The position numbers and the translations under genes are program-made. A model generated the notes under the pieces. That model ran no database searches. It saw only the letters and a list, made by a program, of their open reading frames with translations, and was not told the origin of the DNA. This document shows, in pieces, positions 19,640 to 40,637 of a DNA stretch of 64,000 bases. Where the stretch lies: NCBI GenBank assembly GCA_026683435.1, contig GCA_026683435.1_4866.1. One strand, 5' to 3'. This DNA comes from a phage. The first letter of the stretch is position 1. The number at the start of each line of letters is the position of its first letter.

Positions 19640-20078
19640 GCGCTACTGTTCGAAGAGATGTACGATGGTGAGTCTGGATAAGTGGCGCGATAATACCACG
19701 TGTTGGCGTTGCCAGCGATTTGATAGGCGCGTCTACCGACTGTACACTGCTATCAGATAACCAAACACCGTATAAATCACGTAGAGCTGGGAGAAGATCC
19801 CGCACGGTCTTGGCCGTTTGTGGTACGTAGACGCGCGGAGCTATTTAAAATAGATCTGATAATGTTAAACGGTCGTAATAAACCGTGCACTCCCCAGAGA
19901 AACCTTTACCGGGTTTACCTACCAACGTAATTACCGTGTTACGACCATTCTTAGTGGTCTCGGCAGGAATACCCCTCACCCCAATCGAATCAGCGCTGAT
20001 TCTTCCTGCGAGTTCAGGGTTATCCCTTACAACCTGTTGGCAGAGCAGTTCCAGTTCGGGTGCGCTATACAATCCCAT
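19640..20078 (-). pseudogene. truncated, decayed copy of the 472-aa fibre paralogue
   Basis: First 77 codons are about 75% identical to the N-terminus of 21991-23409 and end at a TAA where the intact copy has Lys. About 68 further codons still resemble the paralogue, then the frame ends. The following 200 bp or so has no ORF. Confidence 0.55.
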
Positions 20079-21025: not shown

Positions 21026-21978
21026 ACACCGCCCGCGGTCGCACCAGCGACATGTTGTATACGCTGGAGGTTATCCACGGTATCAGTGGAACCCGCCGCC
21101 GTTCCGCGCGTCAGCCCCAACTTACGGTCTGGGTCAAACTCCTGACAATGCGCCCCGCGGCCACTCACCGCCGATCCACTTCCGAATATGCTGGTGTTCG
21201 ACCACTTTATCAGGGACATCACTTTTTTCTTTTCTGGGAACCAGCTACTTATCCCATAGATGAGTCGGTTGTATTCGCTATCGGCAGTATACGGTGACGC
21301 GTCATGGAGTTTACCGTCCCACTGTGCATCGAGTGTCATGACCGGGCTTTCACTGTCGAGTGTTAAACCGCGCAGCAGGCGCATCCGATAGCGGTCACCC
21401 AACCACGTAAACTCCCCAGCCTGGTCAACGTCAGGTAAATCACCATGACCGCCTTCCGGACCAGGTCCCGCCACACCGTACAGCAAACCCGCGTTATAAA
21501 TCGCATCACGGCTATACAGCGTGTTGCCGTTCACACGAAGACCACTAAACAGATACAGAATTTTACCGTCTAGCTGGAACTTCATCAAGCCCGGCTTAAC
21601 AGTTGGGTCGTATCCAGAAAGGGCCACAAACCCTGGCGGATAATCAGCCGCGCTAGGCAATTCACCGTACGCCACATACCCGTAATACGCAAAGCGGTCA
21701 TCACCGTACTGTGGAGCCACGATGCCGATACCGCGACGGTTCTGAATTAGAATTGATTTCTGCGGACTGAACAGTGTCCGACTTCCCACTGTCACGGTGG
21801 TCATGTAGTAATACGTTGTCCCCAGTATCGCTGTTCGGTCAGTATACTCAGTTTCCCCGTTAGTGAACGTTGCCAGGGGTTCAGGTAATGCCGTACGCAC
21901 CAGAGGTTTGGTGTCGCGGTACAGCTTCACGGTCGAAGCCCCAGGGTTATTGTTCGTCCAACGAATTGTAAAAGCCAT
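20992..21978 (-). CDS. fibre-module protein, 328 aa (paralogue of 24356-25354)
   Basis: Shared 'F(T)(I/L)RW.N.N', 'LPEP(L/I)AT(F/L).NGETE', 'PGPEGGHGDLP' and C-terminal 'ELI' motifs. Confidence 0.7.
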   Translation of the reverse strand: MAFTIRWTNNNPGASTVKLYRDTKPLVRTALPEPLATFTNGETEYTDRTAILGTTYYYMTTVTVGSRTLFSPQKSILIQNRRGIGIVAPQYGDDRFAYYGYVAYGELPSAADYPPGFVALSGYDPTVKPGLMKFQLDGKILYLFSGLRVNGNTLYSRDAIYNAGLLYGVAGPGPEGGHGDLPDVDQAGEFTWLGDRYRMRLLRGLTLDSESPVMTLDAQWDGKLHDASPYTADSEYNRLIYGISSWFPEKKKVMSLIKWSNTSIFGSGSAVSGRGAHCQEFDPDRKLGLTRGTAAGSTDTVDNLQRIQHVAGATAGGVWIPVIELIED

Positions 21979-21990
21979 TGTCGTTACCTC

Positions 21991-23409
21991 TTATTGGAAT
22001 CCATCCAACTCACCGTTAGTATCGCCCAGAGTAATTTTTGAAGGTTGGGCGATTTGGTCAGTCGTGAGAATAATCGGTCTAATCTTAACGCTAGCCATGC
22101 CTGTTACCGCGACGGAATATGCACGTTCATCATTGTCCGTCGTGGCAAGCAGAGGACGTGGATTCGCTGCAGCGGAGGTTTCCGTAATAGGCACCACACG
22201 AAGCGATTCGTTTTGGTCGATGTCTGTCAGAGTAACCACGGACGGTGCCCATGTCAGTTCTGCACCTTCGTCAATCAACGGCACAGGTTCATTGGCAACA
22301 TCAAACATCTCCAGGATTGGCCAAAAGCCAGAAGAGGTGTGGATGTATGTGTATGAACGATAGCTCCCACTGATAGACTGGTAATACGCTTGGTCGGCAC
22401 CGAACTGGTGTCGTAACCACACGTAATCCAGGAAGTTAGCATCAGTCGTGCTAAGAGTTCCCCATTCCCCATATACGTTCACCGACCCCAATTTGCTGGT
22501 CAGTGACAGGATAGAGGTGATTGACGGCGGTTTACTCCAATCAGGCGCGGCGGCGTTCTCGGTGTAATACGGGATAGACATTCTGAAATAATGCGTTCCT
22601 TCATCATCCCGTTTTACCATGTATTTCAACTGTTCAACATCGACAGGTGTGTAAGTCGACTTCGGGCGAGGTCCTGCGTCTCCGGAATCAAATATTGCAC
22701 CCTTGTTGTACAGGTCTGCCCAGGTAACGTTGCAAATCGCACGGGTCGGAACAAACACTACCGCCCCATTCAGAAAGAATTTGAGCCACTTGATAGCGTA
22801 GCGGTTAGGCCAGTTGGTGCCGTTATAGAGGGCATACACCATTTCATCAGATGTGAATAACTCTTCCGCGCTTACCAACCCAAAGAATCCGTATAACTCA
22901 TTACCGGCCATTAATCCTTTTGGCCCAGGACCCGATTTCGGATACATCGCAATCGGTTCGTAAACATAGGTCATCTTGCATGACCCGGTATAACACAAGG
23001 AGTTAGCGTGCGCCGTCAGAGTTACAGTTTCCGGCGTAGCGTATTTCATTAATGCAACGTTTGGACTGGTGATGTCACTCGCGGTTAAGTTCAACCCGTT
23101 CAATTCATTGAACGCCGGTAACGCTTCCGCATGGGTTTGTGCGCTACGTGGAATACTCACCATATTCGGGCCAGACTTGAACAGACTGGCCAGATTCAAC
23201 CGGTCGTAATATACCGTTATTTCCCCAGCAAATCCTTTACCGGGTTTTCCTACCAACGTAATCTGTGTGTTTCGTCCGTTAACGTTTTTCGCAACAGGAA
23301 CACCCCTGACCCCAATGGAGTCAGCGGTGATTTTTCCTGCTAAACCGGGATTGTCACGCACAATTTGTTGGCAGAGCAGTTCCATTGAAGGTTCTGTATA
23401 CAACCCCAT
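21991..23409 (-). CDS. fibre-like protein, 472 aa: family N-module plus GPGP/GYFG module
   Basis: 'ITVYYDRLNLASLF', 'PKSGPGPKGL', C-terminal 'NGELDGFQ'. Confidence 0.75.
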   Translation of the reverse strand: MGLYTEPSMELLCQQIVRDNPGLAGKITADSIGVRGVPVAKNVNGRNTQITLVGKPGKGFAGEITVYYDRLNLASLFKSGPNMVSIPRSAQTHAEALPAFNELNGLNLTASDITSPNVALMKYATPETVTLTAHANSLCYTGSCKMTYVYEPIAMYPKSGPGPKGLMAGNELYGFFGLVSAEELFTSDEMVYALYNGTNWPNRYAIKWLKFFLNGAVVFVPTRAICNVTWADLYNKGAIFDSGDAGPRPKSTYTPVDVEQLKYMVKRDDEGTHYFRMSIPYYTENAAAPDWSKPPSITSILSLTSKLGSVNVYGEWGTLSTTDANFLDYVWLRHQFGADQAYYQSISGSYRSYTYIHTSSGFWPILEMFDVANEPVPLIDEGAELTWAPSVVTLTDIDQNESLRVVPITETSAAANPRPLLATTDNDERAYSVAVTGMASVKIRPIILTTDQIAQPSKITLGDTNGELDGFQ

Positions 23410-23422
23410 GGTATTTACTCCA

Positions 23423-24346
23423 TTACGGTAAGACTAATTCAAAAGCAAAGAACATCGTGGCCGAGTTCCCGACACCTGAGGTGTTACTAATCCCCATAGG
23501 CGCATAACCGTACGCATAAGCGAAAATGTTGTTGCTCCATAAAGGAGCTAATGCAGCAGCACCTGTTTCGTTAGGCTGGTAAGTTGAACCTTGCGCCGGT
23601 ATTGAATCGATGGCACCAAGACCAATAGGCGGGAACTGTGAACCGACAGGATACAAACGGCCCATTGTGTTTCGCCATTCACCGTTGTTGTAATCCTGTC
23701 CTGAGAGTGCCGCGTCGTACGGGACTGCGTAAGGTAACCGGATACGGTACGTACGACCATCCTTCGTGACCTTACAATCTTGTTTGGTCGCCGTGGCCCC
23801 CAGCGGAACAATACTTCCGTCATCATCGGTCCCGTACATCATGCCGTACTGATACGCCATTTGTACCGAGTTGCTTTTCGAATGCATCGTCGCTGGGAAG
23901 AAGACAATTCGCCCACGGAAAATAAACTTGTGCCATTCCTGAGGGTCGTAAGTAAACATGTTTCCCTGCTGCGCGGTTAACATGAGTTTTAACTCGGCAG
24001 TATTAAAGAACTCGGTATTAGATACCGTACCGAAATAGCCTGACGCCCAATCGCCACGCAAAATAGTTTGTGGCCCCGGTCCAGTGTCCGGATAGAACCC
24101 TTGCGTAATCGGATTGCCGATAAGTCGTTCATTATCTTTCACAGCAGCTACCCAGTAACGATAAGTTGTATTCTTCGTCAGGGTATCGATATTATCTACG
24201 AACTCTACCGCGCTACCGGATAAGGTGGCGTGGGGTGTACCTGGGTTGTAAACGTCGATTGTTGCGTTCCATCCTTCCTTGCGGTAGATTTCAATCGCGG
24301 TAAGACCTTTGCTGGCTTGGGACGGCCAGCTTAACCGTATAGTCAT
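23423..24346 (-). CDS. fibre-module protein, 307 aa
   Basis: 'PDTGPGPQTILRGDWASGYFGTV' and C-terminal 'FELVLP'. Confidence 0.75.
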   Translation of the reverse strand: MTIRLSWPSQASKGLTAIEIYRKEGWNATIDVYNPGTPHATLSGSAVEFVDNIDTLTKNTTYRYWVAAVKDNERLIGNPITQGFYPDTGPGPQTILRGDWASGYFGTVSNTEFFNTAELKLMLTAQQGNMFTYDPQEWHKFIFRGRIVFFPATMHSKSNSVQMAYQYGMMYGTDDDGSIVPLGATATKQDCKVTKDGRTYRIRLPYAVPYDAALSGQDYNNGEWRNTMGRLYPVGSQFPPIGLGAIDSIPAQGSTYQPNETGAAALAPLWSNNIFAYAYGYAPMGISNTSGVGNSATMFFAFELVLP

Positions 24347-24355
24347 GACTGCCCC

Positions 24356-25354
24356 TTACTCGACCAGTTCAAAGATAGGGTAGTAGCGCCCTTTCGTGGT
24401 GGGTGATAAATAGTTTATACGCTGAATCGTGGATACGGGTGTTCCACCGGCATTGTTAAAAATACCACGATGGAGCACACGGTCTTCCGCGGTATCGTGT
24501 TCCATACAGAGAACACCACCGCCGAAATACTGTGCCAAGGTTCCCAAAGTACCCTGTCCCAGATAAGTATAACCGATTGTTGCCCAGTTAGCCCAACGCT
24601 GTTTCTTCGGCACCTCGTTAACCATCGTGTAAAGTAAATCGTTATACTCACACGGGTTGGTTAGAGAAGCGATTTCATCATGGGTTTTCCCATTATAGTC
24701 AGCTACGAAAGGATACGCAGGAGGCTCGCTAGACGTCGTCAGGCCGCGAGGAAGACGCATAATGTACGTATCCCCTTTGTGGACTATCTTAGCGTCTTGT
24801 GGAGTGGCCGGTAGCGTTCCATGGCCGTTCTCTGGGCCAGCATCGCCCGTACCATAGACTAAACCAGCTTGATAGAGGGAAGCCCAGTCCACAGGCGTAT
24901 TCGGGAACTGCGACGTGTTAGATAGCATGTAATAGATCTTCCCGTTTCGGGTAAATTTATACAACGCCACACGATCGGTTAGTAGGTTAGGGAACATCGC
25001 CAAAAATGCAGGTGGCATTTGCGACGGAAGCCACTGTTCGTCGTAAGGAACCGCACCCATAAACCCTAAACGGTCGTCACCGTTTAGAATAGTCATTGGG
25101 CCTATCCCGCGTTTTACCTCAACAGTATATTTCTGGCTAGACGATGCCACTGTTTTACCGTTGGCGGTTACCGTCAGAAGGTAATAATAGGTTGCGCCTG
25201 GTGTGGCGGTGGTATCACGCCATTCTGTCTCGCCATTTGAGAGCGTTGCAATCGGTTCAGGCAAAGCGCCTGGTGTGATATCTTTAACATCACGGTAGAT
25301 TTTTACTACCGTAGGGATTACGTTTGGATTTTTCCAACGCAAAGTAAAAGACAT
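24356..25354 (-). CDS. fibre-module protein, 332 aa
   Basis: FN3-like N-terminus (MSFTLRWKNPN), 'AGPENGHGTLP', C-terminal 'FELVE'. Confidence 0.75.
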   Translation of the reverse strand: MSFTLRWKNPNVIPTVVKIYRDVKDITPGALPEPIATLSNGETEWRDTTATPGATYYYLLTVTANGKTVASSSQKYTVEVKRGIGPMTILNGDDRLGFMGAVPYDEQWLPSQMPPAFLAMFPNLLTDRVALYKFTRNGKIYYMLSNTSQFPNTPVDWASLYQAGLVYGTGDAGPENGHGTLPATPQDAKIVHKGDTYIMRLPRGLTTSSEPPAYPFVADYNGKTHDEIASLTNPCEYNDLLYTMVNEVPKKQRWANWATIGYTYLGQGTLGTLAQYFGGGVLCMEHDTAEDRVLHRGIFNNAGGTPVSTIQRINYLSPTTKGRYYPIFELVE

Positions 25355-25365
25355 GGATGATACCT

Positions 25366-26778
25366 CTACTTAAAGCCGTCCAGTTCACCGTTAAGAGACG
25401 TTAACGTTGTCTTGTCGGGGGGAGTATACATTTCAGCGGTAGCCGCAATAGGTTGGAAGTCGACTGTCTTCGGCAGCATTAATGCAGGCGGATGCAGTGC
25501 GAAACTGTTTTCTGAAGTAACAACTACCGGTTCGAAATCGGTAGTATCTGGATTACCGAGCACCAACGGCTTGAGACTAAACGTGTTTTCTGCGGACACG
25601 CTGCACGGTTGGAGGCTGTAATCTACCGCGCCGTGGATATCTTCTAAGCCCAAGGTAACCGTGGACTTATCCACCAACTCTAGCACCGGGAACCAGTAGT
25701 AGTTGCCTGCGCTCGATGATTTTTCTAAGTTTGTCCAACTGGCTCCAGACAACGTCGCCATGCGATGATAGGCGACGTTGGTCTTCAGTGTATCTTTCAA
25801 TAAACAGAACAGCGTCCAGTAACTGTTAATCGGTTTGTCCCACGTTCCATTATACAGAAAGTTGAACATCTCAAACTCACTACCTGCTAACTCAGCGGCA
25901 GTTGGGGTGCCGCTGACGTATGGGTCTTTCCCGGCACTAGGTAGACGAACACGGAAGTAAAACCTTTTGTTGTCTGCGCCTGTAAAGCTAATGATGCGTC
26001 CCTGGTTAACGGGCGTCGCCGCAGGGTATTTACCATTATCATCTGTTCCGTAAACGAGTCCGTTTGTATATAATGTATTCCAGGAGATGGAGCTAGCGAC
26101 AGGACTGATCGGGAGGTAAATAACCCTACCCTGGTAAAAGAACTTGTACCAACCTTCGGCACCAGAATGTACCGGTGGTAACGCACCGGCCGATATAGTG
26201 GCATTAAGAAGTTGAGAGTGTGTAAACAACTCTGCAATTGTGGTTGTTCCGAAATAACCCGCAATAGTGTTACCTTGCAGCAACGTTTTAGGGCCAGGTC
26301 CAGAATCGGGGTAAATTGCACCGCTCGGGACGGTATAACGTATCGTTAAGCTGCCTGTAAACGCAGGGCAATTACCTGAGATATTTAATTTCAGCGTCTG
26401 CGGCGAAGCGCTCGGTTTAGGTAGACTTGCGTCAGGTAACTGCAAATCAGAAGCAACTAATGTAAGCCCCAATGCGTCGTTTATTGCAGGTAGCGCGTCT
26501 CGTACCGTTAAGACTGTATCTTTGATAGCCACAGTCGGCACAAAATTAAATAAAGTGGCCAGGTTAATCCGGTCGTAGTACACGGTAACATTACCTTGTA
26601 CACCTGTCCCTGGATACCCGGTGAAAACAGCTTTGGTGTTACGTTGGTTTAACGTAACTGAAGTTGGGCCGCTGGTTAAAGCAGCGATAGCCGGCGTCAG
26701 CTTAACAACTAAATCAGGGTTATCCCGATTGACTTGGTCGTATACAAGCAGTGCCGACTCCTTCGAGTAAAATAGCAT
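25366..26778 (-). CDS. fibre-like protein, 470 aa: family N-module plus GPGP/GYFG module
   Basis: 'VTVYYDRINLATLF', 'PDSGPGPKTLLQGN..GYFG', C-terminal 'NGELDGFK'. Confidence 0.75.
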   Translation of the reverse strand: MLFYSKESALLVYDQVNRDNPDLVVKLTPAIAALTSGPTSVTLNQRNTKAVFTGYPGTGVQGNVTVYYDRINLATLFNFVPTVAIKDTVLTVRDALPAINDALGLTLVASDLQLPDASLPKPSASPQTLKLNISGNCPAFTGSLTIRYTVPSGAIYPDSGPGPKTLLQGNTIAGYFGTTTIAELFTHSQLLNATISAGALPPVHSGAEGWYKFFYQGRVIYLPISPVASSISWNTLYTNGLVYGTDDNGKYPAATPVNQGRIISFTGADNKRFYFRVRLPSAGKDPYVSGTPTAAELAGSEFEMFNFLYNGTWDKPINSYWTLFCLLKDTLKTNVAYHRMATLSGASWTNLEKSSSAGNYYWFPVLELVDKSTVTLGLEDIHGAVDYSLQPCSVSAENTFSLKPLVLGNPDTTDFEPVVVTSENSFALHPPALMLPKTVDFQPIAATAEMYTPPDKTTLTSLNGELDGFK

Positions 26779-26827: not shown

Positions 26828-27658
26828 TTAGCTGTTATAGTGGTAGTACGCCACGCCTTTCACGCCTTCCTCATCGATACCCGTTTGGACAACCACGCGG
26901 TCGTACGATTTGTTAGCGAACTGAGCGGTGGATGTCGGCACATCCTGAACGGTGTTACTGTTCAGTGGCCCCGCGTAGTTCGGAATACCCAGGTCATCCA
27001 ACACCTTACGCAAACCAGCCCACTGCGGTAGGCCAGAAGCATCTACTGTCAGTAGGTTTTTATACGCGGTAAAGTCAATACCGTACGTCAACAAATCAAT
27101 ACACTTCTTACCGAGAGACGGTGAAATAGGCTCTTGAATCGCATTCAAGACATCCGATTTCACCGAAGTGTCTAGTACCGGTAAACCACGGTTATAACGC
27201 AACGTCGCAGAACCGATATAAGCCGGAGATGTCGATAGCGCTACGATGTTCTGTGTATTGGTGTAATTTGGGGTATTGGGACCCGCCAGTGGGAGGTTAT
27301 AGATATCGATTGCAGAGAAGTTTACTCCGTAAGTATCCAAGAGCACCGAAAAGGCTGAGTGGAGGTTGGGAGCGTCAAACGTGACGAACTGCGCCTGGAC
27401 AGAAGGACCCCACGGCAATAACCGCGCTAAGTTCACACGGTCGTAGTAAACGGTGATTGCGTCTCGAAATCCAGAACCCTGAATACCGCGCAAGCGTGCC
27501 GACGTATTGCGGTTGTTGGAAGCTGCATTAACGGGAACCTGTGTCACTTTCTCCACGTAGCAGTTTGCCGGCGACGCTTTAATAGGTAGGTTTGGGTTAT
27601 CCCGGTTAATGAGGTCAAAGACCAACTCGTTTGACGGCTTAGCATAGTTGATCATCAA
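26828..27658 (-). CDS. paralogue-family protein (276 aa)
   Basis: N-module 'ITVYYDRVNLARLL'; C-terminal 'YYHYNS'. Confidence 0.75.
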   Translation of the reverse strand: MMINYAKPSNELVFDLINRDNPNLPIKASPANCYVEKVTQVPVNAASNNRNTSARLRGIQGSGFRDAITVYYDRVNLARLLPWGPSVQAQFVTFDAPNLHSAFSVLLDTYGVNFSAIDIYNLPLAGPNTPNYTNTQNIVALSTSPAYIGSATLRYNRGLPVLDTSVKSDVLNAIQEPISPSLGKKCIDLLTYGIDFTAYKNLLTVDASGLPQWAGLRKVLDDLGIPNYAGPLNSNTVQDVPTSTAQFANKSYDRVVVQTGIDEEGVKGVAYYHYNS

Positions 27659-28546
27659 TTATACCTCGCTTGGATCGTCCAGATCGTTGAACTGGAGATA
27701 CAACGTTCCGACGATGGTGGTACAGGTAACAGGCAGTTTCAACACCAGCGCATACTTGTACTTCGCGTTTGTCGGCATTGCAACAGGGTCATTCAGACCA
27801 ACGCTGATAACCTCCGCGCCCGCCAAACCGTAGGAAGCGGAAGTGGTCGCTACCCATGCAGTACCCGTGATATCTTTCAGCAGGTTAACCATATCCGTCA
27901 ACGGCTGTCCAGACAGAATACCCGGCTTGTATGCCAGCAGAGCATCTCGGTACTTAGTGAAGTTGTACGGGTAGGAATAGACCTCTGCAATGACCGCAGT
28001 AACATTTTCGGAACCCATCTGACCGTTCGGGTATTTCAGACCGGTCAGGACGTTAGTAGTGACCGCAGAGACTAACGACTCATCGCCTTTCACGACTTTA
28101 AATGTCGCCTGTCCAACCCAACCGATAGACTCTGGATGTGCAACAACACGCACAGTACCTTCGGTCTTATCACCGTTCCATTCGATATCTGCGTCCTGCA
28201 GGTCAGCTTCTTCCAGAACAAAACCGTAACGTTGGTTCAGTCCAGGAATGGCCGCATACAAGGTTTCGTTGGATGGGCCGATCGCCAACGTGTCACCAAT
28301 CAACACTAACAAGTCTTCGACTTTCATGCGGTTGTAGAAGACATTTTTCTTACCCGACCAGGTAGAGCCCGTTACCCCATCTGCCGTAATTTTAATTTGC
28401 GTGTTACGGTTAGTCAGCGTTTCCTTTTCCGTACCACGGATGTCCTTTGGCGTGGACCAGATGATGTCAGTCATCTTAACAGCAAGCGAGTTCTGTGCGT
28501 TCACTGCTGCCAACAGGACGTCTTTAGAAGGTTGATAAATAGCCAT
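27659..28546 (-). CDS. paralogue-family protein (295 aa)
   Basis: N-module 'VFYNRMKVEDLL'; C-terminal 'LYLQFNDLD'. Confidence 0.75.
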   Translation of the reverse strand: MAIYQPSKDVLLAAVNAQNSLAVKMTDIIWSTPKDIRGTEKETLTNRNTQIKITADGVTGSTWSGKKNVFYNRMKVEDLLVLIGDTLAIGPSNETLYAAIPGLNQRYGFVLEEADLQDADIEWNGDKTEGTVRVVAHPESIGWVGQATFKVVKGDESLVSAVTTNVLTGLKYPNGQMGSENVTAVIAEVYSYPYNFTKYRDALLAYKPGILSGQPLTDMVNLLKDITGTAWVATTSASYGLAGAEVISVGLNDPVAMPTNAKYKYALVLKLPVTCTTIVGTLYLQFNDLDDPSEV

Positions 28547-28556
28547 TCGCTAATTC

Positions 28557-29414
28557 CTAGTTGTTGTAGTGCAACATACACTCGCCGATTACTTTCGGGT
28601 CGTTCTGAATGCCGGTAATCAGCAATACGTTATCGTACGCTTTATTGGCGGTCGCCAACTCACTCGTTTTGTAGCGGGTAATTGTGCAGTTCGTCGGATC
28701 AAACGACGGTACCCCACGTGCGACCAATGTGGCCATCAGATTGGACGTGTAACCCAAATCAAAGTTACTTCCTACGTCCATTCGCCCGTTCTTAAACGAG
28801 GCCATAACCTGCACTTCATCGGTAAAGTCTTCCCCGTACGTCAAGAAGCCCATGTATTTCTTACCAGTGCTTGCTGCTGCAGGGTGGTTCAAAGCCAACA
28901 AGATGTCGTTTACCACGAGGTCTTCGAGGCTATTCTTACCCCGGATAGACATAAAGGTGATGCTGCCAGTGTATTGGATACAGCTAGCGTTAATACGCAT
29001 CGTGTTGTTTACGTTCAGATAAACGTATTGTTCTGGGATATCATCTGCAACCAGGTTTAATCCATAACGACCGTTCAGGTTCTGCGCAAACGCAGTACGT
29101 TTCGACTCCACGTTCAACCAACCGTAGGCATTCGGTGCAGTTACCTGAGGTGTCATGTTCTTAAATAAGTCGTTCAGCGACAAGCGCTTATAACGGAACG
29201 TTTGAGGACCGATATAACCACGACCTTGACGACCACGAATGATAATCTCGGTGTTGGCACCGCTTGCTGTCGGTGTGATTGCTTTCGGCGTACCGATGAT
29301 AGCATTGTCTAAACCCATCGGTAGAACAGCATCCGGGTTTTCGGCATTAATCGCATCGTACAGATATTGTCGCTGAGACAGACTATATAAAGCCATAATA
29401 GCCTCCTCGGCCAA
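28557..29414 (-). CDS. paralogue-family protein (285 aa)
   Basis: GAGGAGG RBS. N-module 'TFRYKRLSLNDLF'; C-terminal 'MLHYNN'. Confidence 0.75.
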   Translation of the reverse strand: MAEEAIMALYSLSQRQYLYDAINAENPDAVLPMGLDNAIIGTPKAITPTASGANTEIIIRGRQGRGYIGPQTFRYKRLSLNDLFKNMTPQVTAPNAYGWLNVESKRTAFAQNLNGRYGLNLVADDIPEQYVYLNVNNTMRINASCIQYTGSITFMSIRGKNSLEDLVVNDILLALNHPAAASTGKKYMGFLTYGEDFTDEVQVMASFKNGRMDVGSNFDLGYTSNLMATLVARGVPSFDPTNCTITRYKTSELATANKAYDNVLLITGIQNDPKVIGECMLHYNN

Positions 29415-29465
29415 AAAAGAAAGGAGTAGCCAGGAGGAGGATTTCCTCCTCCCAGCGAGGCCTAA

Positions 29466-30377
29466 TTAGGCATTAAAGTGCAGGTACATGATACCCTGGA
29501 AGTTGGTGCACAGAGTGTCATCCAGCTGCAGCAGCAGAACCTGGTTGTAAGCAGTGTTTGCACCTTCAACCGGTTTCTTAGGTTCGTCGCCTGAAGCAGT
29601 GCCATCGTCAGTAGTAGAACCAACGTACAACACGTTAGCGCCTTTCAGGTTATAATCCGCAGGCTTATCAGATGCAACCCACAGTTCCGGCACAACTTTA
29701 TTCAGCTCAACCGGGAATGCAGAGTCGCCAGCGATAACACCTTTCGCCTGTACTTTCAGGAATGCTGCGATTGCTGTGCAGTCTACACCGTAAGAGTAGA
29801 TGTAACCCTGACCCTTCGCAGCGCTTGGACCATCTGGGTAAACCAGGCCGTCGAGCTTGGTTTGTGTTACCACCAGACTCAGACGTTCACCAACCTGAGG
29901 CTTAGCACCGATTTTAACCGGGATGCTGCCCAGATAAGCGTAGCAGTCTTCTTTGAAAGTAATGACGTGGTCAACCGGTGCTGGGTCCGGATCGTTCGGG
30001 TTAGTCAGCGGCGGGTTGGTATTTTCCGGAATAGCCGCCGGAACGATATCGTCTTCGGTCAGCTTCAATCCGTATTGGGTGTTCAGGGTCGTCAGCAGGT
30101 CGGTGGTGGTTTTCGGCAGTTTAACGTCGAGGTATGCGGTTACATTACGGAACAGCGCACTGCCTTCCAGGCGATTATAAGTCACGTCCTGAGTACCGAT
30201 GTACCCGGAGTTCTTTTTCGCAGTCAGGGTCATGCTGGTATTGCGATCGGCACCTTCATCGCTAATAGGGGTCGGTGTGCCGAGCGTTATTTTAGAAAGT
30301 TCCAGTTCTGCGTCTGGGTTTTTCTCATTAATAAAATCCAGAACCAGCTTATCGGACGTTTTGTTTAAAGGTTTCAT
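29466..30377 (-). CDS. paralogue-family protein (303 aa)
   Basis: N-module 'DVTYNRLEGSALF'; C-terminal 'MYLHFNA'. Confidence 0.75.
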   Translation of the reverse strand: MKPLNKTSDKLVLDFINEKNPDAELELSKITLGTPTPISDEGADRNTSMTLTAKKNSGYIGTQDVTYNRLEGSALFRNVTAYLDVKLPKTTTDLLTTLNTQYGLKLTEDDIVPAAIPENTNPPLTNPNDPDPAPVDHVITFKEDCYAYLGSIPVKIGAKPQVGERLSLVVTQTKLDGLVYPDGPSAAKGQGYIYSYGVDCTAIAAFLKVQAKGVIAGDSAFPVELNKVVPELWVASDKPADYNLKGANVLYVGSTTDDGTASGDEPKKPVEGANTAYNQVLLLQLDDTLCTNFQGIMYLHFNA

Positions 30378-30398
30378 TCTTACTTCCTTTACTCAGGA

Positions 30399-31244
30399 TT
30401 AATCAGGGTCGTTGTAATGCAAATACAAACGCCCGCCAAAATTCAGACAGTACAACGACAGCTCCACAATCAGCACGTTGTCGACTGCTGGGTTGGTTGG
30501 TAATTCCGCTTTGTTACGCCCGTTATAGACGACGACGGCTTCACGAAGGTTAAAGTCGATAGGGTTGCGGTACGTTGTCCAGTTATCACCGGTGACCGTT
30601 TTGAGAATCTGTGCCAGACGTTCTGTGGTTATCGCAGCACCTAGTCGTTGAAATTCCTCCGCGAAATTATCAAAGCGCCAGGGATACGAATAAACTGCAC
30701 CTTGACCGACCTTGATGTTAAAATACGGATACTCGTAAGGCATCACTGTTAACGGTTCGAAGTTTGCAGGAAGCAACGCATCGCCTGGTAACAGCTGTAC
30801 CTGTTGTTGCCCTATCCAACCTAAAGAAGTGGGCGTGGCAATCAGATCCACACGCCATGTCTTCCTGTCGATTTCGGTATTCACCACATCTGCAGGTTTA
30901 AGGCTGAGACCGTAATACTGGTTAATTAACCCGACCACGTCATGCATCTGGTAAACAGCATCGAGACGTGCAGGAACACGTAGAGGTTGAATCCCGTCCG
31001 GATCGGTAAACATGTCTGCGAAGTCAACACGATCGTAGTACACGGTAGTGGCACCGATAGCATTAGCCGTGGCCAATGCCTGAATGCGCACCATCGCGTT
31101 GTGACCGTTAGCTTTTGCCAGGTCTTCGTCAGACGTCGGAATCGCAGGGACACCAAAAACAACATCTTCGACTTTTAAATCGAGATTGTTTTCGACGTTA
31201 ACTTCCGCGATAATAATCTTTTCAGCTGTGGCTAAAAGTGGCAT
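30399..31244 (-). CDS. paralogue-family protein (281 aa)
   Basis: N-module 'TTVYYDRVDFADMF'; C-terminal 'LYLHYNDPD'. Confidence 0.75.
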   Translation of the reverse strand: MPLLATAEKIIIAEVNVENNLDLKVEDVVFGVPAIPTSDEDLAKANGHNAMVRIQALATANAIGATTVYYDRVDFADMFTDPDGIQPLRVPARLDAVYQMHDVVGLINQYYGLSLKPADVVNTEIDRKTWRVDLIATPTSLGWIGQQQVQLLPGDALLPANFEPLTVMPYEYPYFNIKVGQGAVYSYPWRFDNFAEEFQRLGAAITTERLAQILKTVTGDNWTTYRNPIDFNLREAVVVYNGRNKAELPTNPAVDNVLIVELSLYCLNFGGRLYLHYNDPD

Positions 31245-31254
31245 GTCAAAATCC

Positions 31255-32097
31255 TTATATCGGGAGATAATGAAGGATGAGATTACCGGCGTAGTTGCTG
31301 TCCGCAGCTAGCTTGATAATCGCCACACGCTGATAATCGGGGTTGTAACTATCGTTCGGTGTGACTGAAGTTATCCCCATAAATCGTGCACCTTGGAGTG
31401 CAATTTGTTCAGGTTGCGCATTCGCCCCCGTCACATATGCAAACTTTAATGGCACCACTTCATTCAACAACTCAACATCCGCTGCAGTGATTGCACGGTT
31501 GTAAACCCAATCGGTGGTGAACTGTTTTTGCAGTTCAGTCCAATCGTAACCATACGCCACATACTCAGCCTGCGGTTTACTAGCAACCACGAACGGCGCG
31601 ATAATTGCGCTGAGGTCAACATCCGTCACCACATCCGCCAAGTTCGGGAAGAACTTCGCAAAGCGTAAACGGAAACCACCTTGCCAGGCCAAGCAACCGG
31701 GCTTAATAGTCACATCGATTAACCAGCTTTCTCCCAAATCTTTTACTGACTGGTCAACGATATCGTCGGCAACTAAAGACAAGCCGTATTTCGCATTCAG
31801 AAACGGCAACAACTCAGAGAGTTTATTTACCGGGTCGGCAACGACTACCGGTATTACGTTCCTGAACAGAATTTCCATTTCGATACGGTCGTATTCGAGC
31901 GTAACGTTGCCTTTGTAGCCCTTGCCGTTCAACCCGTATAAGAGCACACGCGTATTCCGGTCAGCGCCAGGCGTTTGGACAGACTCAGGGAAGCCAGTTG
32001 CAACCTGCTCCCATGTGAGTGGATTGGCCGTTAATCCGTTCTGTCGGTTAATAGCATCTAACAACATCTCTTTCGAGGGCTTATCGTAAATAGACAC
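31255..32097 (-). CDS. paralogue-family protein (280 aa)
   Basis: N-module 'VTLEYDRIEMEILF'; C-terminal 'LILHYLPI'. Confidence 0.75.
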   Translation of the reverse strand: MSIYDKPSKEMLLDAINRQNGLTANPLTWEQVATGFPESVQTPGADRNTRVLLYGLNGKGYKGNVTLEYDRIEMEILFRNVIPVVVADPVNKLSELLPFLNAKYGLSLVADDIVDQSVKDLGESWLIDVTIKPGCLAWQGGFRLRFAKFFPNLADVVTDVDLSAIIAPFVVASKPQAEYVAYGYDWTELQKQFTTDWVYNRAITAADVELLNEVVPLKFAYVTGANAQPEQIALQGARFMGITSVTPNDSYNPDYQRVAIIKLAADSNYAGNLILHYLPI

Positions 32098-32107
32098 CTA
32101 TACCCTC

Positions 32108-32905
32108 CTAGTTGTTAAAGTGTAGGTTGAGGCTGCCCTGGAAGTTCGTACATTTATCGGTCAGTTGCACTGACACGACTTTCGCGAACGCCGTATTTGC
32201 TCCCGGCAAGTCTGCAGGTACGCCGTCGAATACGACAGTGGCACCACGCAGGTTATACGGGGATGGGGTATCTTCAGCTACCCAAATCTCAGGAACACAT
32301 TTGTTGAGTTCGATTGCCAACGCCGTGTCATCTACCTCGATACCGACCGCTAAGAGGCTCAGGAAACGAGAGATGTGGCTACAATCGATGTCACGCGAAT
32401 AGATATACGCCTGACCCAACTGGATGTCCTGGTGATCCGGGTACAGAAGACCGCTCAACTCTGTATTGGTTACTACTTCTGCCAGAGGTGTAGCAGGTTT
32501 CAGCTCGATGACCGCTTGACTTCGCCACTCGTGGGAAGTTTCAACAGCAACGACTGTGTGCGTCTGTCCATCAATGGGGTTATCTTCGATATCCTCAGGT
32601 AAGATAGACAGATTAAAACGCTCGTTAATCGCCGCGAGTAAGTCGTGCGTGGTTTGCACGTCCTCGTCTCCAAAGGCAACATCGCCTGTAAGGTAGTCCT
32701 CTAATGGGCGACGATGGTAGTCCACAATCACTTGCGTACCTTCATCACCGCGCATCTTCGAGGTAAGGACTACCTCCGAATCACGACCGTCTACTGACAC
32801 AACCTCCGGCAGTCCGATATCAACATCGTCAAAGGTAAGCGGTGGGCTTATCTTATTCTCTTCGTTGATGAGTTTTAGCAGATTCTGTTTTGAAGTAAAA
32901 GACAT
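32108..32905 (-). CDS. paralogue-family protein (265 aa), first gene of the array
   Basis: N-module 'VIVDYHRRPLEDYL'; C-terminal 'LNLHFNN'. Confidence 0.75.
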   Translation of the reverse strand: MSFTSKQNLLKLINEENKISPPLTFDDVDIGLPEVVSVDGRDSEVVLTSKMRGDEGTQVIVDYHRRPLEDYLTGDVAFGDEDVQTTHDLLAAINERFNLSILPEDIEDNPIDGQTHTVVAVETSHEWRSQAVIELKPATPLAEVVTNTELSGLLYPDHQDIQLGQAYIYSRDIDCSHISRFLSLLAVGIEVDDTALAIELNKCVPEIWVAEDTPSPYNLRGATVVFDGVPADLPGANTAFAKVVSVQLTDKCTNFQGSLNLHFNN

Positions 32906-33945: not shown

Positions 33946-33981
33946 ACTGCTTTATTCGCTACCCTTGGGATAAGCGTCATC

Positions 33982-38477: not shown

Positions 38478-40637
38478 TTACTGATATATTTTGATTTGTG
38501 GGTAACTATAGCTATAGCTATCGCTATCAACATCCTGACCGACAAACAAAATGCCTGTGTTAGAAAACGCCGCGCTGCAATACAATGTTAGCCCGGCGGG
38601 GTTAGAAATCGTATTACCGTAGTAGGCGCTGTAGCGCATGTACTTACCGTCATTCTTCACAAACAGGCTGCCTAACGATCCAACCATTCCGAAGATCAAA
38701 CAAGCACCATCGGGAGAAACACAGACATTGCCGTTCGGATATCGAGTGGATGTTACACTATAATCAATTTCCGTGTAATCCAACTCACGTGTCGCCACCC
38801 AACCATCGGCGCGTTTTTCGAAGATGTTGTATTTGTGGGTTTCAAGGACGGATACCAGTATGACTGAAAAGTTCGAAGATGCTGCCACCTTCAACGTCGA
38901 GGCTTCTGCTAACCCTGGGATGTCTAGCTTAGCGGTTTCAACATAGAGTCCTTCTGAACCTTTAGTTACGATATGAACAGATTTTCCATTGTGCTCTGAA
39001 AAAGCAACGCTGGTGCCATCGGCGGTCATCGCAATACTGTCGTACGAACCACACAGAGCACCAGAATCGTCGAAGTCAAACGTGAGCGTTTCGTAATTTG
39101 AAAACCCATCACTTTTTTGGTAAACAGCTATTTCGCGCGTACCATTCCCAACGAACAGTGTCTCTCCGTCCGGGGTGAGTTTGACCAACTTACCGTTTAC
39201 ACCGGTGGCCGGGAGATTGGTAATTGCTGTTGGCGTCACTTTGCCCCACGGCATGTCGGCACTGTTGTCGTAAACCAGCACTGCGCCCTTCGTTGTTTCC
39301 CCAGTTATCGCGGAAGGAATCCCGACGACGAACAAATCGCCTGACTTGTTTATCGATACCGGACAACGCCCATCGGTTTCCGCATTTTCACCAGTATCAA
39401 AAGTTAGATCCATCAGAATGCTGGCATCGTGTCTATAGCCTGGGAAATCTTTTCTATATATAGAAATTGTAGTTGAACGCTTTGCAAGTGGAGTGGTAAT
39501 CAGTACATTTGCATCGCTACTACAATCCAATTCTGCACCCAACGAATAATTATTTTCCGAAGACACGTTCAACGACTGGAATTCATTCGATGGGTATACG
39601 TTTCGGCTTATCTTTATCCGATAAGGATCGGACCACTGTCCGACGGTGTCCTCACCACGATATCTGACGCGTAGCCAATAACTACTACCGTATTGAAGCA
39701 CGTTATCCGGCAGAGTTATCGTTGTAAGGTTTCGCATATCGAACAATGAAGAGAATGGTAGGTTGCTACTAGGACTAAAATCTAACGTATCGCCATAGTT
39801 ATAATAGAGTTTCCAATCTGTAGCAATATGCGTTTCCGTGCCTGAAGTTTCAAACGTCGATGTTTCTATCGTTAAACCTGACGGTCCGTTCACATCGGTT
39901 GGGGTTGGCGACACTATCGTCGGTTTTTGGATTGTGGTCTCTATTACCGAAAACATGGTTACTGACCAGTCACTATTAACCGTATCTGAGTGAAATTTAG
40001 CACGGGCGTAATACGTCTTGTTTCCTACCAGTGTGCCGGGTGGTAAAGTTAGAAATTTTTTAGCATCCTGAGATTCGAGCAATTGGTAAACCGTAGTGGA
40101 AAAATCTTCATTTTCAGACACTTCCCAACTCGTCGCTCTATGAGGTGTTGTTTGAAACGGCCTTGCAGTGAAGCCATTGAGGATAAAATCCAGATCACTA
40201 GCTGAACTAGAACCGTAGTACGGGGAAATCCATGTAGGCGCGTCCACTACATTAGAGACCACCTCAATTTCATAGGTTTTGGTGATGCCGTTAGCAGAAA
40301 CGGTCAGCGTAATAATTTGTCCTAACTGCCGAGGATCTTCGATAAACAACGTATAGTTTAAACCTCCATAATGCCTGATTATTGCTTCAGGGCACGTTAC
40401 CTGATAAACCGACGGTTCTTCATTACCGGCAATGTAAAAAAACGTTTCCCTGCCTAGAATGCATTTTTTTTCATCTCCGTCGGAAAAGATTACAGTGAAT
40501 GATGACTCTGCAGAAGCATCTGACAACGGTATCTTGTATTCGATTCCATCCTTACTAAATAAAACAACCCCACCCGTTTTATCCCCAGTAAATTCAGGCA
40601 GTTCGTGTAAACGTTTCTTTTTGACTACAGTTGCCAT
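38478..40637 (-). CDS. large hypothetical protein (719 aa)
   Basis: Long ORF. An FN3-like/beta-rich architecture is a guess from Ser/Thr/Gly-rich composition. Confidence 0.65.
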   Translation of the reverse strand: MATVVKKKRLHELPEFTGDKTGGVVLFSKDGIEYKIPLSDASAESSFTVIFSDGDEKKCILGRETFFYIAGNEEPSVYQVTCPEAIIRHYGGLNYTLFIEDPRQLGQIITLTVSANGITKTYEIEVVSNVVDAPTWISPYYGSSSASDLDFILNGFTARPFQTTPHRATSWEVSENEDFSTTVYQLLESQDAKKFLTLPPGTLVGNKTYYARAKFHSDTVNSDWSVTMFSVIETTIQKPTIVSPTPTDVNGPSGLTIETSTFETSGTETHIATDWKLYYNYGDTLDFSPSSNLPFSSLFDMRNLTTITLPDNVLQYGSSYWLRVRYRGEDTVGQWSDPYRIKISRNVYPSNEFQSLNVSSENNYSLGAELDCSSDANVLITTPLAKRSTTISIYRKDFPGYRHDASILMDLTFDTGENAETDGRCPVSINKSGDLFVVGIPSAITGETTKGAVLVYDNSADMPWGKVTPTAITNLPATGVNGKLVKLTPDGETLFVGNGTREIAVYQKSDGFSNYETLTFDFDDSGALCGSYDSIAMTADGTSVAFSEHNGKSVHIVTKGSEGLYVETAKLDIPGLAEASTLKVAASSNFSVILVSVLETHKYNIFEKRADGWVATRELDYTEIDYSVTSTRYPNGNVCVSPDGACLIFGMVGSLGSLFVKNDGKYMRYSAYYGNTISNPAGLTLYCSAAFSNTGILFVGQDVDSDSYSYSYPQIKIYQ

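What the first reader, a model, noticed from the sequence alone, without database searches (positions are those of the whole stretch)
26828..32905. Array of seven consecutive paralogues sharing an N-terminal module, with more family members elsewhere
Seen: seven adjacent genes of 265-303 aa all begin with a similar module of about 80 aa ending in a Y-(Y/N/K/D/H)-R-(L/I/V/M/R) motif (VYYDRVNL, VFYNRMKV, FRYKRLSL, VTYNRLEG, VYYDRVDF, LEYDRIEM, VDYHRRPL) and mostly end in an L-x-L-H-(Y/F)-N-like C-terminus, while the middle is divergent. The same N-module starts the 439-, 470- and 472-aa fibre-like proteins and the small proteins at 12473-13021 and 40637-41188, giving 12 intact members plus one pseudogene. 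Inference: a conserved attachment module fused to diversified distal domains, consistent with a multi-fibre or decoration system.
Basis: partly seen in the sequence, partly recalled or inferred. Interest (0 to 1): 0.55.

Follow-up and report, generated by a model that had tools for sequence, protein, structure and literature searches.

The report
Jumbo-phage DUF7941 virion paralogue array
Seven neighbouring genes of a SPN3US-like giant Salmonella phage encode related virion proteins of an already described family (Pfam DUF7941, SPN3US "paralog family B") that probably join head-to-tail into flexible host-catching filaments, so the finding is real but not new.

Summary
Seven adjacent minus-strand genes (26828-32905) are paralogues with 17-38% identity.

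Two corrections apply. The seven are homologous over their whole length, and the shared module is about 150 aa, not 80.

The window is a SPN3US-like chimallivirus (98% nucleotide identity). The seven genes are orthologues of SPN3US gp138-gp144. That family was published in 2016-2017 as "paralog family B" and is Pfam DUF7941.

Published mass spectrometry finds all seven in virions. A 2026 Goslar preprint shows that a DUF7941 protein forms filaments, and it proposes a host-recognition "fibre cloud".

The "attachment module plus distal domains" reading is therefore largely right. The baseplate location is not supported for this lineage, because SPN3US orthologues stay at full level on tailless heads. 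That conflict is unresolved and is the only novel angle.

Verdict: already known, modest interest.

The parts
32108..32905 (-). Paralogue 1, 265 aa, orthologue of SPN3US gp138; full-length DUF7941
   Evidence: Pfam DUF7941 E 9.8e-68, profile positions 5-276. Mapped to SPN3US_0138. Positional orthologue in Erwinia phage ChrisDB is 55% identical.
31255..32097 (-). Paralogue 2, 280 aa (GTG start), orthologue of SPN3US gp139
   Evidence: Pfam E 1.2e-70. The GTG start agrees with the mass-spectrometry-revised start of SPN3US gp139. ChrisDB orthologue is 76% identical.
30399..31244 (-). Paralogue 3, 281 aa, orthologue of SPN3US gp140
   Evidence: Pfam E 2.1e-79. ChrisDB orthologue is 80% identical.
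29466..30377 (-). Paralogue 4, 303 aa, orthologue of SPN3US gp141, the most abundant full-length member and candidate major subunit
28557..29396 (-). Paralogue 5, 279 aa from ATG 29396 (the mechanical ORF starts at TTG 29414), orthologue of SPN3US gp142
   Evidence: Pfam E 1.7e-79, aa 7-285 of the long ORF. The SPN3US N-terminus is methionine-processed with P1' = A, which fits MALYS.
27659..28546 (-). Paralogue 6, 295 aa, orthologue of SPN3US gp143, the second most abundant full-length member
   Evidence: Pfam E 7e-82. 1038 peptide-spectrum matches in SPN3US virions.
26828..27655 (-). Paralogue 7, 275 aa from ATG 27655, orthologue of SPN3US gp144
   Evidence: Pfam E 7.6e-87. The SPN3US N-terminus is intact with P1' = I, which fits MINY.
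25366..26778 (-). 470-aa member (gp145-like): DUF7941 N-domain, C-type-lectin-like domain, disordered tail ending in NGELDGF
24356..25354 (-). 332-aa protein (gp146-like). It has no DUF7941 module but shares the lectin-like domain of the 470-aa protein.
   Evidence: No Pfam hit. phrog_1062 E 5e-57 and phrog_3589 positions 160-290. Counted in paralog family B by the SPN3US authors.
23423..24346 (-). 307-aa protein (gp147-like), lectin-like domain only
   Evidence: phrog_1062 E 2.6e-58; phrog_3589 E 3.4e-25.
21991..23409 (-). 472-aa member (gp148-like): N-domain, lectin-like domain (assigned by homology to the 470-aa protein, not modelled), tail ending in NGELDGF
   Evidence: Pfam profile positions 1-153, E 4.5e-30. 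C-tail HMM E 6e-17.
20992..21978 (-). 328-aa protein (gp149-like), lectin-like domain only
   Evidence: No Pfam hit. 46% identical to ChrisDB gp166 and 39% to the gp146 type.
20090..20989 (-). 299-aa protein (gp150-like; ATG 20989), lectin-like domain only
   Evidence: Start read from the sequence. Homology to the gp147/gp150 type.
19698..20078 (-). Pseudogene: the first 127 codons of a gp151-like gene with an in-frame stop at codon 85, joined out of frame to the last 36 codons of a gp153-like gene
   Evidence: There is a 2.87-kb deletion relative to SPN3US. tblastn and three-frame translation. N-module HMM E 4e-14.
18105..19424 (-). 439-aa member (gp154-like): full DUF7941-like region (aa 1 to about 287) plus an extra C-terminal domain shared with the 725-aa protein
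   Evidence: Pfam profile positions 1-170, E 1.5e-26. phrog_1037 covers 1-287 at E 1.7e-66. The C-terminal roughly 105 aa are 28% identical to the end of the 725-aa protein, E 1e-7.
15913..18090 (-).
   Evidence: Pfam DUF7941 E 3e-22 and GP38 E 5.9e-18 at aa 373-553. N-domain copies at aa 11-153 and 176-304. PDB 6F45_D, the S16 receptor recognition protein, E 1e-3.
12473..13021 (-). 182-aa member (gp160-like): N-domain plus short tail only. It is highly abundant in SPN3US.
   Evidence: Pfam profile positions 7-105, E 1.1e-11. Its C-tail matches the 470-family tail HMM at E 2e-10. 1750 peptide-spectrum matches in SPN3US.
40637..41188 (-). 183-aa member (gp122-like): N-domain only. It lies directly upstream of a tail-cassette gene.
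   Evidence: Pfam profile positions 3-162, E 6.4e-18. SPN3US gp122 was detected only in tailed virions, 22 versus 0 peptide-spectrum matches.

Best explanation
The seven genes are orthologues of SPN3US gp138-gp144. They are full-length members of Pfam DUF7941, which is the SPN3US "paralog family B", and they are structural proteins of the virion.

Each protein has three parts:
- an N-terminal globular domain of about 150 aa;
- a poorly ordered linker of about 30 aa;
- a C-terminal globular domain of about 110 aa that ends in the conserved L-H-(Y/F)-N strand.

Inferred mechanism. The linker and C-domain of one subunit dock on the N-domain of the next, so that subunits form non-covalent, flexible head-to-tail heteropolymers.
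- The gp141-like protein would be the major full-length subunit, and the gp160-like N-domain-only protein the major short subunit.
- The other six conserved paralogues would be low-copy, non-interchangeable adaptor subunits.
- Members with the same N-domain but other C-terminal parts would plug ligand-binding modules into the filaments. These are the lectin-like 470- and 472-aa proteins and the Gp38-adhesin-like 725-aa protein.
- The result would be a diffuse adhesive network that increases capture of the host surface. SPN3US is reported to be flagellum-dependent.

What is shown here or in the literature: the homology, the domain architecture, the match to phiKZ gp127, the fused binding domains, the presence in virions and the abundance hierarchy.

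What is inferred: polymerisation in this phage, the adhesive role and the anchoring point. For this lineage the anchoring point is most likely the head or neck rather than the baseplate, because the SPN3US orthologues stay on tailless heads.
For: Identity of the genes:
- 98.3% nucleotide identity to SPN3US over the whole array, with a gene-by-gene mapping.
- DUF7941 full-length hits at 229-292 bits against a 27-bit cut-off.
- Seoulvirus belongs to the Chimalliviridae.

Architecture:
- The AF2 model has pLDDT 87.6 and pTM 0.52. It shows two confident domains and a linker of pLDDT about 70. This matches the description of Goslar gp22.

Relation to a located protein:
- A profile of the seven hits phiKZ gp127 (PDB 9XQD) at E 1.4e-24, including its C-terminal LLIHYN.

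Filament formation by a family member:
- Purified Goslar gp22 forms filaments in negative stain.
- AlphaFold 3 predicts head-to-tail oligomers, and a gp126-gp127 dimer fits phiKZ density (preprint).

Natural covalent concatenation:
- Many of the best 150 of the 3,381 family representatives carry 2-12 tandem N-domain matches.
- The 725-aa protein in this window carries two.

Binding domains on the same N-domain:
- C-type-lectin-like fold.
- Gp38 adhesin domain.
- Ig, SPRY, BNR, arabinofuranosidase, ConA-like lectin and Gp38 domains in long relatives.

Virion presence and abundance:
- SPN3US gp138-144 were all detected. gp141 and gp160 are estimated at more than 300 copies per capsid.
- This parallels Goslar gp22 and gp23, at about 580 and about 2140 copies.

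Non-redundancy:
- Each of the seven has a positional orthologue in Erwinia phage ChrisDB at 55-80% identity, against 25-35% to the other paralogues.

Other points:
- None of the proteins is cleaved by the prohead protease.
- SPN3US is reported to be flagellum-dependent.
Against: - No filaments, hairs or head fibres are mentioned in the SPN3US or SPFM papers I searched.
- I could model monomers only, so the docking step is not tested for these proteins.
- The only family member with an experimentally assigned position is phiKZ gp127. It sits on the peripheral baseplate at 6 copies per virion.
- In SPN3US the family co-purifies with tailless, DNA-filled heads in several independent preparations, at a per-capsid retention of 0.64-1.2.
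  - The SPN3US authors read this as head proteins, possibly ejection proteins.
  - An internal location would make an adhesive role impossible.
- The Goslar work is an unreviewed preprint. It saw no DUF7941 density in its own maps.
- My attempt to link the linker of the seven to the C-terminal NGELxGF tail of the 470/472/182-aa proteins was not significant: hhalign P 0.053, probability 1%.
Confidence: 0.55

Rival explanations
1. Internal head proteins. On this reading the family is packaged inside the capsid with the DNA, like the PF12699 proteins, and is ejected into the cell or serves as internal packing material.
For: - SPN3US orthologues are retained in tailless DNA-filled heads at the same level per capsid as the major capsid protein.
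- The SPN3US authors labelled gp141 and gp160 "Head ejection?".
- SPN3US heads hold a large internal protein mass.
- Goslar maps show no ordered external density for thousands of DUF7941 copies.
- The proteins are acidic, pI 4.2-6.5. That is compatible with this reading but not diagnostic.
Against: - No member is processed by the prohead protease and none has its cleavage motif, unlike the known abundant ejection proteins.
- phiKZ gp127 is external, on the baseplate.
- The same N-domain is fused to lectin-like, Gp38-adhesin, Ig, BNR and glycosidase domains, which are typical of exposed receptor-binding proteins.
- Goslar gp22 forms long filaments.
- The genes sit among tail, fibre and lysis genes rather than in a head-gene cluster.
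Confidence: 0.2
2. Baseplate-anchored fibre cloud, exactly as proposed for Goslar and implied by the first reader. On this reading the head signal in SPN3US is a purification artefact caused by free or detached filaments sticking to heads.
For: - phiKZ gp127 caps a gp139 band in the outer peripheral baseplate, and gp126-gp127 fits the neighbouring density.
- The N-domain-only members gp122 and gp237 behave as tail proteins in SPN3US.
- An SPN3US tail was seen cross-linked to a flagellum through its baseplate or fibres.
Against: - In 255(am107) heads the baseplate and fibre proteins gp167-171 drop to 0.4-1.3% of wild type, while the family members listed as head proteins stay at 64-120% per capsid with small replicate variation.
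- The result recurs in the 64_112(am27) heads and in am59-supF heads.
- From general knowledge rather than a test here, protein-only filaments should not co-band with DNA-filled heads in a CsCl buoyant-density gradient unless they are bound to them.
Confidence: 0.15
3. Ordered capsid decoration or cement proteins that occupy lattice positions on the T=27 shell.
For: - The proteins associate with heads and some are in high copy number.
Against: - The near-atomic Goslar composite model, which includes the capsid, left the DUF7941 proteins unmodelled.
- In the phiKZ atlas the only family member I found assigned is gp127, on the baseplate.
- Copy numbers of the seven differ more than 10-fold and do not follow lattice multiples.
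- The flexible linker and the filament formation by gp22 do not fit a rigid cement role.
Confidence: 0.05

Closest known systems
SPN3US "paralog family B" (gp83, gp138-154, gp160, candidate gp122); J. Thomas laboratory, 2016-2023
   Same: The seven genes are the direct orthologues of gp138-gp144, with 98.3% nucleotide identity and the same order. The family, its size and its virion presence are described.
   Different: - This window's phage has lost one lectin-type triplet, leaving a pseudogene.
- The published family was defined by PSI-BLAST. It includes the lectin-only proteins (gp146/147 type), which lack the DUF7941 module.
- It omits gp155, which has the module.
- No function was proposed in those papers.
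Pfam DUF7941 (PF25613); Goslar gp22 and gp23 (bioRxiv 10.64898/2026.04.21.720040)
   Same: - Same Pfam family at full length.
- Same N-domain, linker and C-domain architecture.
- Same split into an abundant full-length subunit and an abundant N-domain-only subunit.
- Same kind of fusions to carbohydrate-binding or adhesin domains.
   Different: - Goslar has one full-length abundant member, whereas this lineage keeps seven conserved full-length paralogues.
- The preprint places the filaments on the peripheral baseplate and does not cite the SPN3US data. Those data put the orthologues on tailless heads.
phiKZ gp127 (PDB 9XQD, outer peripheral baseplate)
   Different: - gp127 is present once per star-lobe, that is 6 per virion, and caps a gp139 dimer band.
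- The SPN3US orthologues of the seven are present in tens to hundreds of copies and are not tail-dependent.
T2/T6/S16 Gp38 tail-fibre adhesin (Pfam PF05268, PDB 6F45)
   Same: The 725-aa family member carries a Gp38-type polyglycine domain: Pfam E 5.9e-18 and 6F45_D E 1e-3. Another family representative carries the same domain.
   Different: In T-even phages Gp38 caps the long tail fibre. Here the domain follows two DUF7941 N-domains, and the SPN3US orthologue gp155 is scored as head-associated. The seven themselves have no such domain.
C-type-lectin-fold binding proteins of phages and predatory bacteria (Bordetella phage Mtd, DGR variable proteins TvpA and TaqVP, Bdellovibrio Bd2740 fibre tip)
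   Different: - I looked for no diversity-generating retroelement.
- This concerns the lectin-type members, not the seven.
Head- or neck-borne host-capture fibres (T4 Wac whiskers, capsid fibres of flagellotropic phage 7-7-1, Goslar gp126 collar filaments)
   Same: This is a functional analogy only. These are flexible appendages assembled on the head or neck independently of the tail. That would explain retention on tailless heads and flagellum dependence.
   Different: No sequence or fold relationship was found. Attachment of DUF7941 proteins to the head or neck has not been observed.

Membership tests
Pfam DUF7941 (PF25613) | Score above the curated gathering threshold (27 bits) over the whole profile | tested here: met
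   All seven score 229-292 bits and cover profile positions 1(5)-276.
Pfam DUF7941 (PF25613) | N-terminal globular domain, disordered linker and C-terminal globular domain, as described for Goslar gp22 | tested here: met
   The AF2 model of the 303-aa paralogue has confident blocks at aa 1-158 and 190-303, a linker of pLDDT about 70 and pTM 0.52.
Pfam DUF7941 (PF25613) | Encoded by a chimallivirus | tested here: met
   The window is 98% identical to SPN3US and SEGD1. Seoulvirus is placed in the Chimalliviridae.
Pfam DUF7941 (PF25613) | Fold shared with phiKZ gp127, the only member in the PDB | tested here: met
   [not shown]
DUF7941 "fibre cloud" as proposed for Goslar | Head-to-tail self-assembly into filaments | not testable with these tools
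   Only monomer prediction was available. Indirect support comes from the tandem N-domain proteins in the family. The filament evidence concerns Goslar gp22 only.
DUF7941 "fibre cloud" as proposed for Goslar | Anchoring on the peripheral baseplate, so that presence depends on the tail | tested here: not met
   I recomputed published SPN3US data. gp138-144 are retained at 0.88-1.12 per capsid in tailless 255(am107) heads, while baseplate proteins fall to about 0.01. This rests on literature for 98%-identical orthologues, not on this phage itself.
DUF7941 "fibre cloud" as proposed for Goslar | Some members fuse the module to host-recognition domains | tested here: met
   Gp38 adhesin domain in the 725-aa protein. 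C-type-lectin-like domain in the 470-aa protein. Lectin, glycosidase, BNR and Ig domains in long relatives.
SPN3US paralog family B | Orthology to gp138-gp144 in sequence and position | tested here: met
   Megablast covers 100% of the array at 98.3% identity with a gene-by-gene mapping.
SPN3US paralog family B | Products present in purified virions | not testable with these tools
   Shown by mass spectrometry for the SPN3US orthologues, at 200-2239 peptide-spectrum matches each. Not shown for this phage.
Classical phage tail fibres or tailspikes | Elongated trimeric shaft (coiled coil, beta-helix or triple beta-spiral) or a match to known fibre families | tested here: not met
   The models are compact alpha/beta domains. 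The seven have no fibre-family hits in Pfam or the PDB.
Internal head or ejection proteins of phiKZ-like phages (PF12699 type) | PF12699 domain and/or an N-terminal propeptide removed by the prohead protease | tested here: not met
   No PF12699 hit. The SPN3US orthologues lack the cleavage motif and several have intact N-termini.

The most novel reading that the evidence does not exclude
In Seoulvirus-type chimalliviruses the DUF7941 network would be carried by the head or neck rather than by the baseplate. It would form an external, head-borne cloud of heteropolymeric filaments that captures flagella or surface glycans.

The seven conserved paralogues would act as position-specific adaptor subunits. 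Each would connect the major subunit to a different adhesin module: the lectin-type triplets, gp154 or gp155.

This would overturn both the "internal head protein" reading of the SPN3US work and the "universally baseplate-anchored" reading of the Goslar preprint.
Probability: 0.35. Interest if true: 0.6.

Novelty: already known. Interest (0 to 1): 0.3.

Why it matters
The family is one of the largest paralogue sets in any phage genome. It accounts for a large share of the virion protein that current chimallivirus structures have not modelled. Its function bears on how nucleus-forming jumbo phages find their hosts.

For this window nothing new is discovered. The genes, their paralogy and their virion presence are all published.

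The useful outcome is a link that the literature has not yet made:
- Pfam DUF7941 and the Goslar "fibre cloud" family are the same as SPN3US "paralog family B".
- The SPN3US tailless-head proteomes contradict exclusive anchoring on the baseplate.

Resolving that conflict would decide whether these abundant proteins are adhesive appendages or capsid cargo.

Tried and rejected
1. Chance similarity. Rejected by the leave-one-out HMMs and the shuffles.
2. N-module only, with an unrelated middle. Rejected, because the seven align at full length with the Pfam profile and my own profiles.
4. A common docking motif. I tested whether the linker of the seven (…VVTxTxLxGL…) and the C-terminal tail of the 470/472/182-aa proteins (…TxLxxxNGELxGF) are the same motif.
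   - The tail motif itself is significant among the 470-, 472- and 182-aa proteins (E 2e-10).
   - The tail HMM and the linker HMM do not cross-hit.
   - hhalign gives P 0.053 and probability 1%. I treat the link as not supported.
5. A simple regex for the motif found too few sites to be informative.
6. Defence-system membership. There are no PADLOC hits.
7. Micrograph evidence for hairy heads or tails in SPN3US-like phages. The SPN3US and SPFM papers I searched do not mention any. The jumbo-phage "hairy/whisker" literature concerns unrelated phages such as CBB.
8. Prohead proteomes as a way to decide inside versus outside. The protease-mutant preparations contained both proheads and free tails, so they cannot discriminate.
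9. Copy numbers from spectral counts.
   - Calibration on the capsid protein overestimates the portal about five-fold, giving 66 copies where a phage portal normally has 12.
   - I therefore used only rank order and per-capsid retention.

Full report
**What is in the sequence**

The region 26828-32905 holds seven back-to-back minus-strand ORFs of 265-303 aa.
- The seven are 17-38% identical in pairs and are collinear from the first to the last residue.
- Two mechanical ORF starts are slightly too long. The SPN3US orthologues have experimentally observed N-termini that fit ATG 27655 (MINY…) and ATG 29396 (MALYS…). The GTG start at 32097 agrees with a start revised by mass spectrometry.

**Is it more than chance?**

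Yes.
- An HMM of the roughly 80-aa N-module built from any six of the seven finds the seventh at E 3e-7 to 3e-20 (24-66 bits).
- The best of 4,400 shuffled window ORFs scores 9.5 bits.
- The seven-member N-module HMM also finds proteins it was not trained on:
  - the 439-, 470- and 472-aa proteins, at E 1e-15 to 6e-17;
  - a 77-aa ORF at 19845-20078, at 4e-14;
  - the 182-aa protein at 12473-13021, at 6e-9;
  - the 183-aa protein at 40637-41188, at 1e-7.
- An HMM of the remaining part of the seven, and a full-length HMM, show two further things.
  - The seven share the whole protein.
  - The longer proteins share about 150 aa, not 80.
The 725-aa protein at 15913-18090 has two tandem copies of the module, at aa 11-153 and 176-304.

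**What the window is**

The array is 98.3-98.7% identical in DNA to Salmonella phage SPN3US and its relatives (SEGD1, JN03, SPFM phages, Escherichia phage EC001, Proteus phage 7). It is 73-76% identical to Erwinia jumbo phages.
- Gene by gene, the seven are SPN3US_0138 to SPN3US_0144.
- Seoulvirus belongs to the Chimalliviridae, the nucleus-forming phiKZ-like jumbo phages.

**What was already known**

- In 2017 the same group named it paralog family B, with 20 members plus the candidate gp122, and proposed no function.
- Pfam holds the family as DUF7941. All seven match the whole 276-position profile at E 1e-68 to 8e-87.
- The 439-, 470-, 472-, 182-, 183- and 725-aa proteins match its N-terminal part.
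- PHROGs tells the same story. It also shows that the 332- and 307-aa proteins, counted as family B by the SPN3US authors, lack the DUF7941 module. They share the middle domain of the 470-aa protein instead.
- The 2017 text lists "161" as a member.
  - In this window the gp160 homologue carries the module.
  - The gp161 homologue carries DUF4376 and no DUF7941.
  - The 2023 table marks gp160 as family B, so "161" looks like a slip.

**Published evidence on location**

In dual-gradient-purified SPN3US, gp138-144 were all detected, at 200-2239 peptide-spectrum matches each. They were also found at equal or higher normalised levels in tailless heads of the tail-tube amber mutant 255(am107).
- I normalised these counts to the major capsid protein.
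  - Retention per capsid is 0.88-1.12 for the seven.
  - It is 0.64-1.2 for the family members listed as head proteins.
  - It is 0.004-0.03 for sheath, tube and baseplate proteins.
- The same assignment came from the 64_112(am27) heads and from DNA-full heads of am59 grown in supF cells.
- Densitometry gave more than 300 copies each of gp141 and gp160 per capsid.
- None of the family is cut by the prohead protease.
- Two N-domain-only members behave differently. gp237 is now scored as a tail protein, and gp122 was seen only in tailed virions.

**Recent structural work**

- A profile of the seven hits one PDB sequence, phiKZ gp127 in entry 9XQD. The E-value is 1.4e-24, the match runs from residue 67 to the C-terminus, and it includes the C-terminal …LLIHYN.
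- In the 2026 phiKZ atlas, one gp127 caps a band of gp139 dimers in each of the six star-lobes of the outer peripheral baseplate.
- A 2026 preprint on phage Goslar describes DUF7941 as a chimallivirus-specific family. Its main points are:
  - gp22, at about 580 copies, consists of an N-domain, a linker and a C-domain.
  - gp23, at about 2140 copies, has the N-domain and linker only.
  - AlphaFold 3 predicts head-to-tail oligomers, and purified gp22 forms filaments.
  - Some members carry carbohydrate-binding, glycosidase or LRR domains.
  - The authors propose a baseplate-anchored "fibre cloud".
- The preprint does not cite SPN3US. The equivalence with paralog family B, and the tailless-head data, are therefore not discussed there.

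**My structural and family-wide tests**

The 303-aa paralogue (gp141-like):
- The AF2 model has pLDDT 87.6 and pTM 0.52. It shows confident blocks at aa 1-158 and 190-303 and a weaker linker.

The 470-aa protein:
- The middle domain gives a consistent series of C-type-lectin-fold hits:

The 725-aa protein:
- It carries a Gp38-type adhesin domain, with Pfam E 5.9e-18 and S16 gp38 (6F45_D) at E 1e-3.
- It shares its last roughly 105 aa with the 439-aa protein.

Other points:
- The C-terminal tails of the 470-, 472- and 182-aa proteins share a motif, T-x-L-x3-N-G-E-L-x-G-F, at E 2e-10.
- An N-domain profile finds 3,381 cluster representatives among 1.84 billion proteins. They range from 149 to 2032 aa, and many contain 2-12 tandem copies.
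- Long members carry Ig, SPRY, BNR, arabinofuranosidase, ConA-like lectin, beta-propeller or Gp38 domains.

**Evolution of the array**

- Each of the seven has a positional orthologue in Erwinia phage ChrisDB at 55-80% identity, against 25-35% to the other paralogues. The sevenfold duplication is therefore old, and each copy has been kept.
- The lectin-type triplets evolve faster, at 37-67% identity, and vary in number.
  - ChrisDB has at least three complete triplets plus the first gene of a fourth in the stretch retrieved.
  - SPN3US has three.
  - This window has two plus a remnant.
- The remnant results from a 2.87-kb deletion between paralogous triplets. It keeps 127 codons of a gp151-like gene with an in-frame stop at codon 85, joined out of frame to the end of a gp153-like gene.

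**Interpretation**

Several lines point the same way:
- the homology to an exposed baseplate protein;
- filament formation by a relative;
- natural tandem concatenation of the N-domain;
- lectin and adhesin fusions;
- the absence of protease processing;
- the position of the genes among tail, fibre and lysis genes.

Together they favour an external, modular filament system that displays binding domains. SPN3US is reported to depend on flagella, which gives such a system an obvious target.

For the seven themselves it needs adjusting. They carry a conserved C-domain rather than diversified distal domains, and they look like shaft or adaptor subunits.

The location is the weak point.
- In SPN3US the proteins go with the head, not the tail.
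- Possible readings are attachment to the capsid or neck, which I favour; an internal location; or filaments sticking to heads during purification.
- I could not discriminate further. Only monomer models were available, and the published prohead preparations contained free tails.

**Verdict**

The feature is already known. The only point of real interest is the unreconciled conflict between the SPN3US proteomics and the baseplate model, which simple accessibility and reciprocal-proteome experiments could settle.

Noticed in passing
window 38478-40637 (-): A 719-aa ORF replaces SPN3US gp123+gp124, which are tail proteins by mass spectrometry. It has no Pfam, PHROG or PADLOC hit. In 50,697 phage records only its first 39 aa find a match, 69% identical to a tail-fibre-annotated gene of Erwinia phage Asesino. 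It is probably a swapped receptor-binding cassette, and it lies directly downstream of the DUF7941 N-domain-only gene at 40637-41188.
   Followed up: partly
window 19698-20078 (-): Relative to SPN3US there is a 2.87-kb deletion between paralogous triplets. It removes most of gp151, all of gp152 and most of gp153. The remnant has an extra in-frame stop at codon 85 and an out-of-frame junction.
   Followed up: yes
window 19508-19591 (-): A 28-aa vestige of another N-module (MGFYSSTALELLCRLIQRDNPQHAGRIS…, 64% identical to the gp151 N-terminus) lies in the spacer upstream of the 439-aa gene. The stretch is colinear with SPN3US, so the vestige is probably older than the deletion.
   Followed up: partly
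window 15913-18090 (-): The gp155-like 725-aa protein has two tandem DUF7941 N-domains, a Gp38-type polyglycine adhesin domain and a C-terminal domain shared with the 439-aa protein. The SPN3US authors did not count gp155 in paralog family B, although they detect it on tailless heads.
   Followed up: yes
window 20090-25354 (-): genes at 24356-25354, 23423-24346, 20992-21978 and 20090-20989: The lectin-only proteins come in pairs behind each 470-type gene. All end, like the lectin-like domain of the 470-aa protein, in a hydrophobic …(F/I/L)ELV… strand. In SPN3US the members of a triplet have spectral counts per kDa within about 2.6-fold of each other (derived from the counts). This could mean hetero-oligomeric tips, which I did not test.
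   Followed up: no
window 11721-12392 (+) and 12473-13021 (-): The 2017 SPN3US paper lists gp161 as a family B member. Here the gp161 homologue has DUF4376 and no DUF7941, while the gp160 homologue has DUF7941. "161" is probably a slip for 160.
   Followed up: yes
window 14287-14928 (-) and 15217-15870 (-): Directly downstream of the family array lie a DUF1353 protein, which RefSeq calls a tail assembly chaperone, and the endolysin gene. Two radical-SAM genes lie on the opposite strand at about 8945-11216.
   Followed up: no
window 33956-34763, 38441-40600 and 44461-46516: These stretches have no BLAST counterpart above 300 bp in the SPN3US region retrieved, whereas the flanks are 94-98% identical. 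This suggests mosaic replacement of small early or hypothetical genes as well as of the tail cassette.
   Followed up: no
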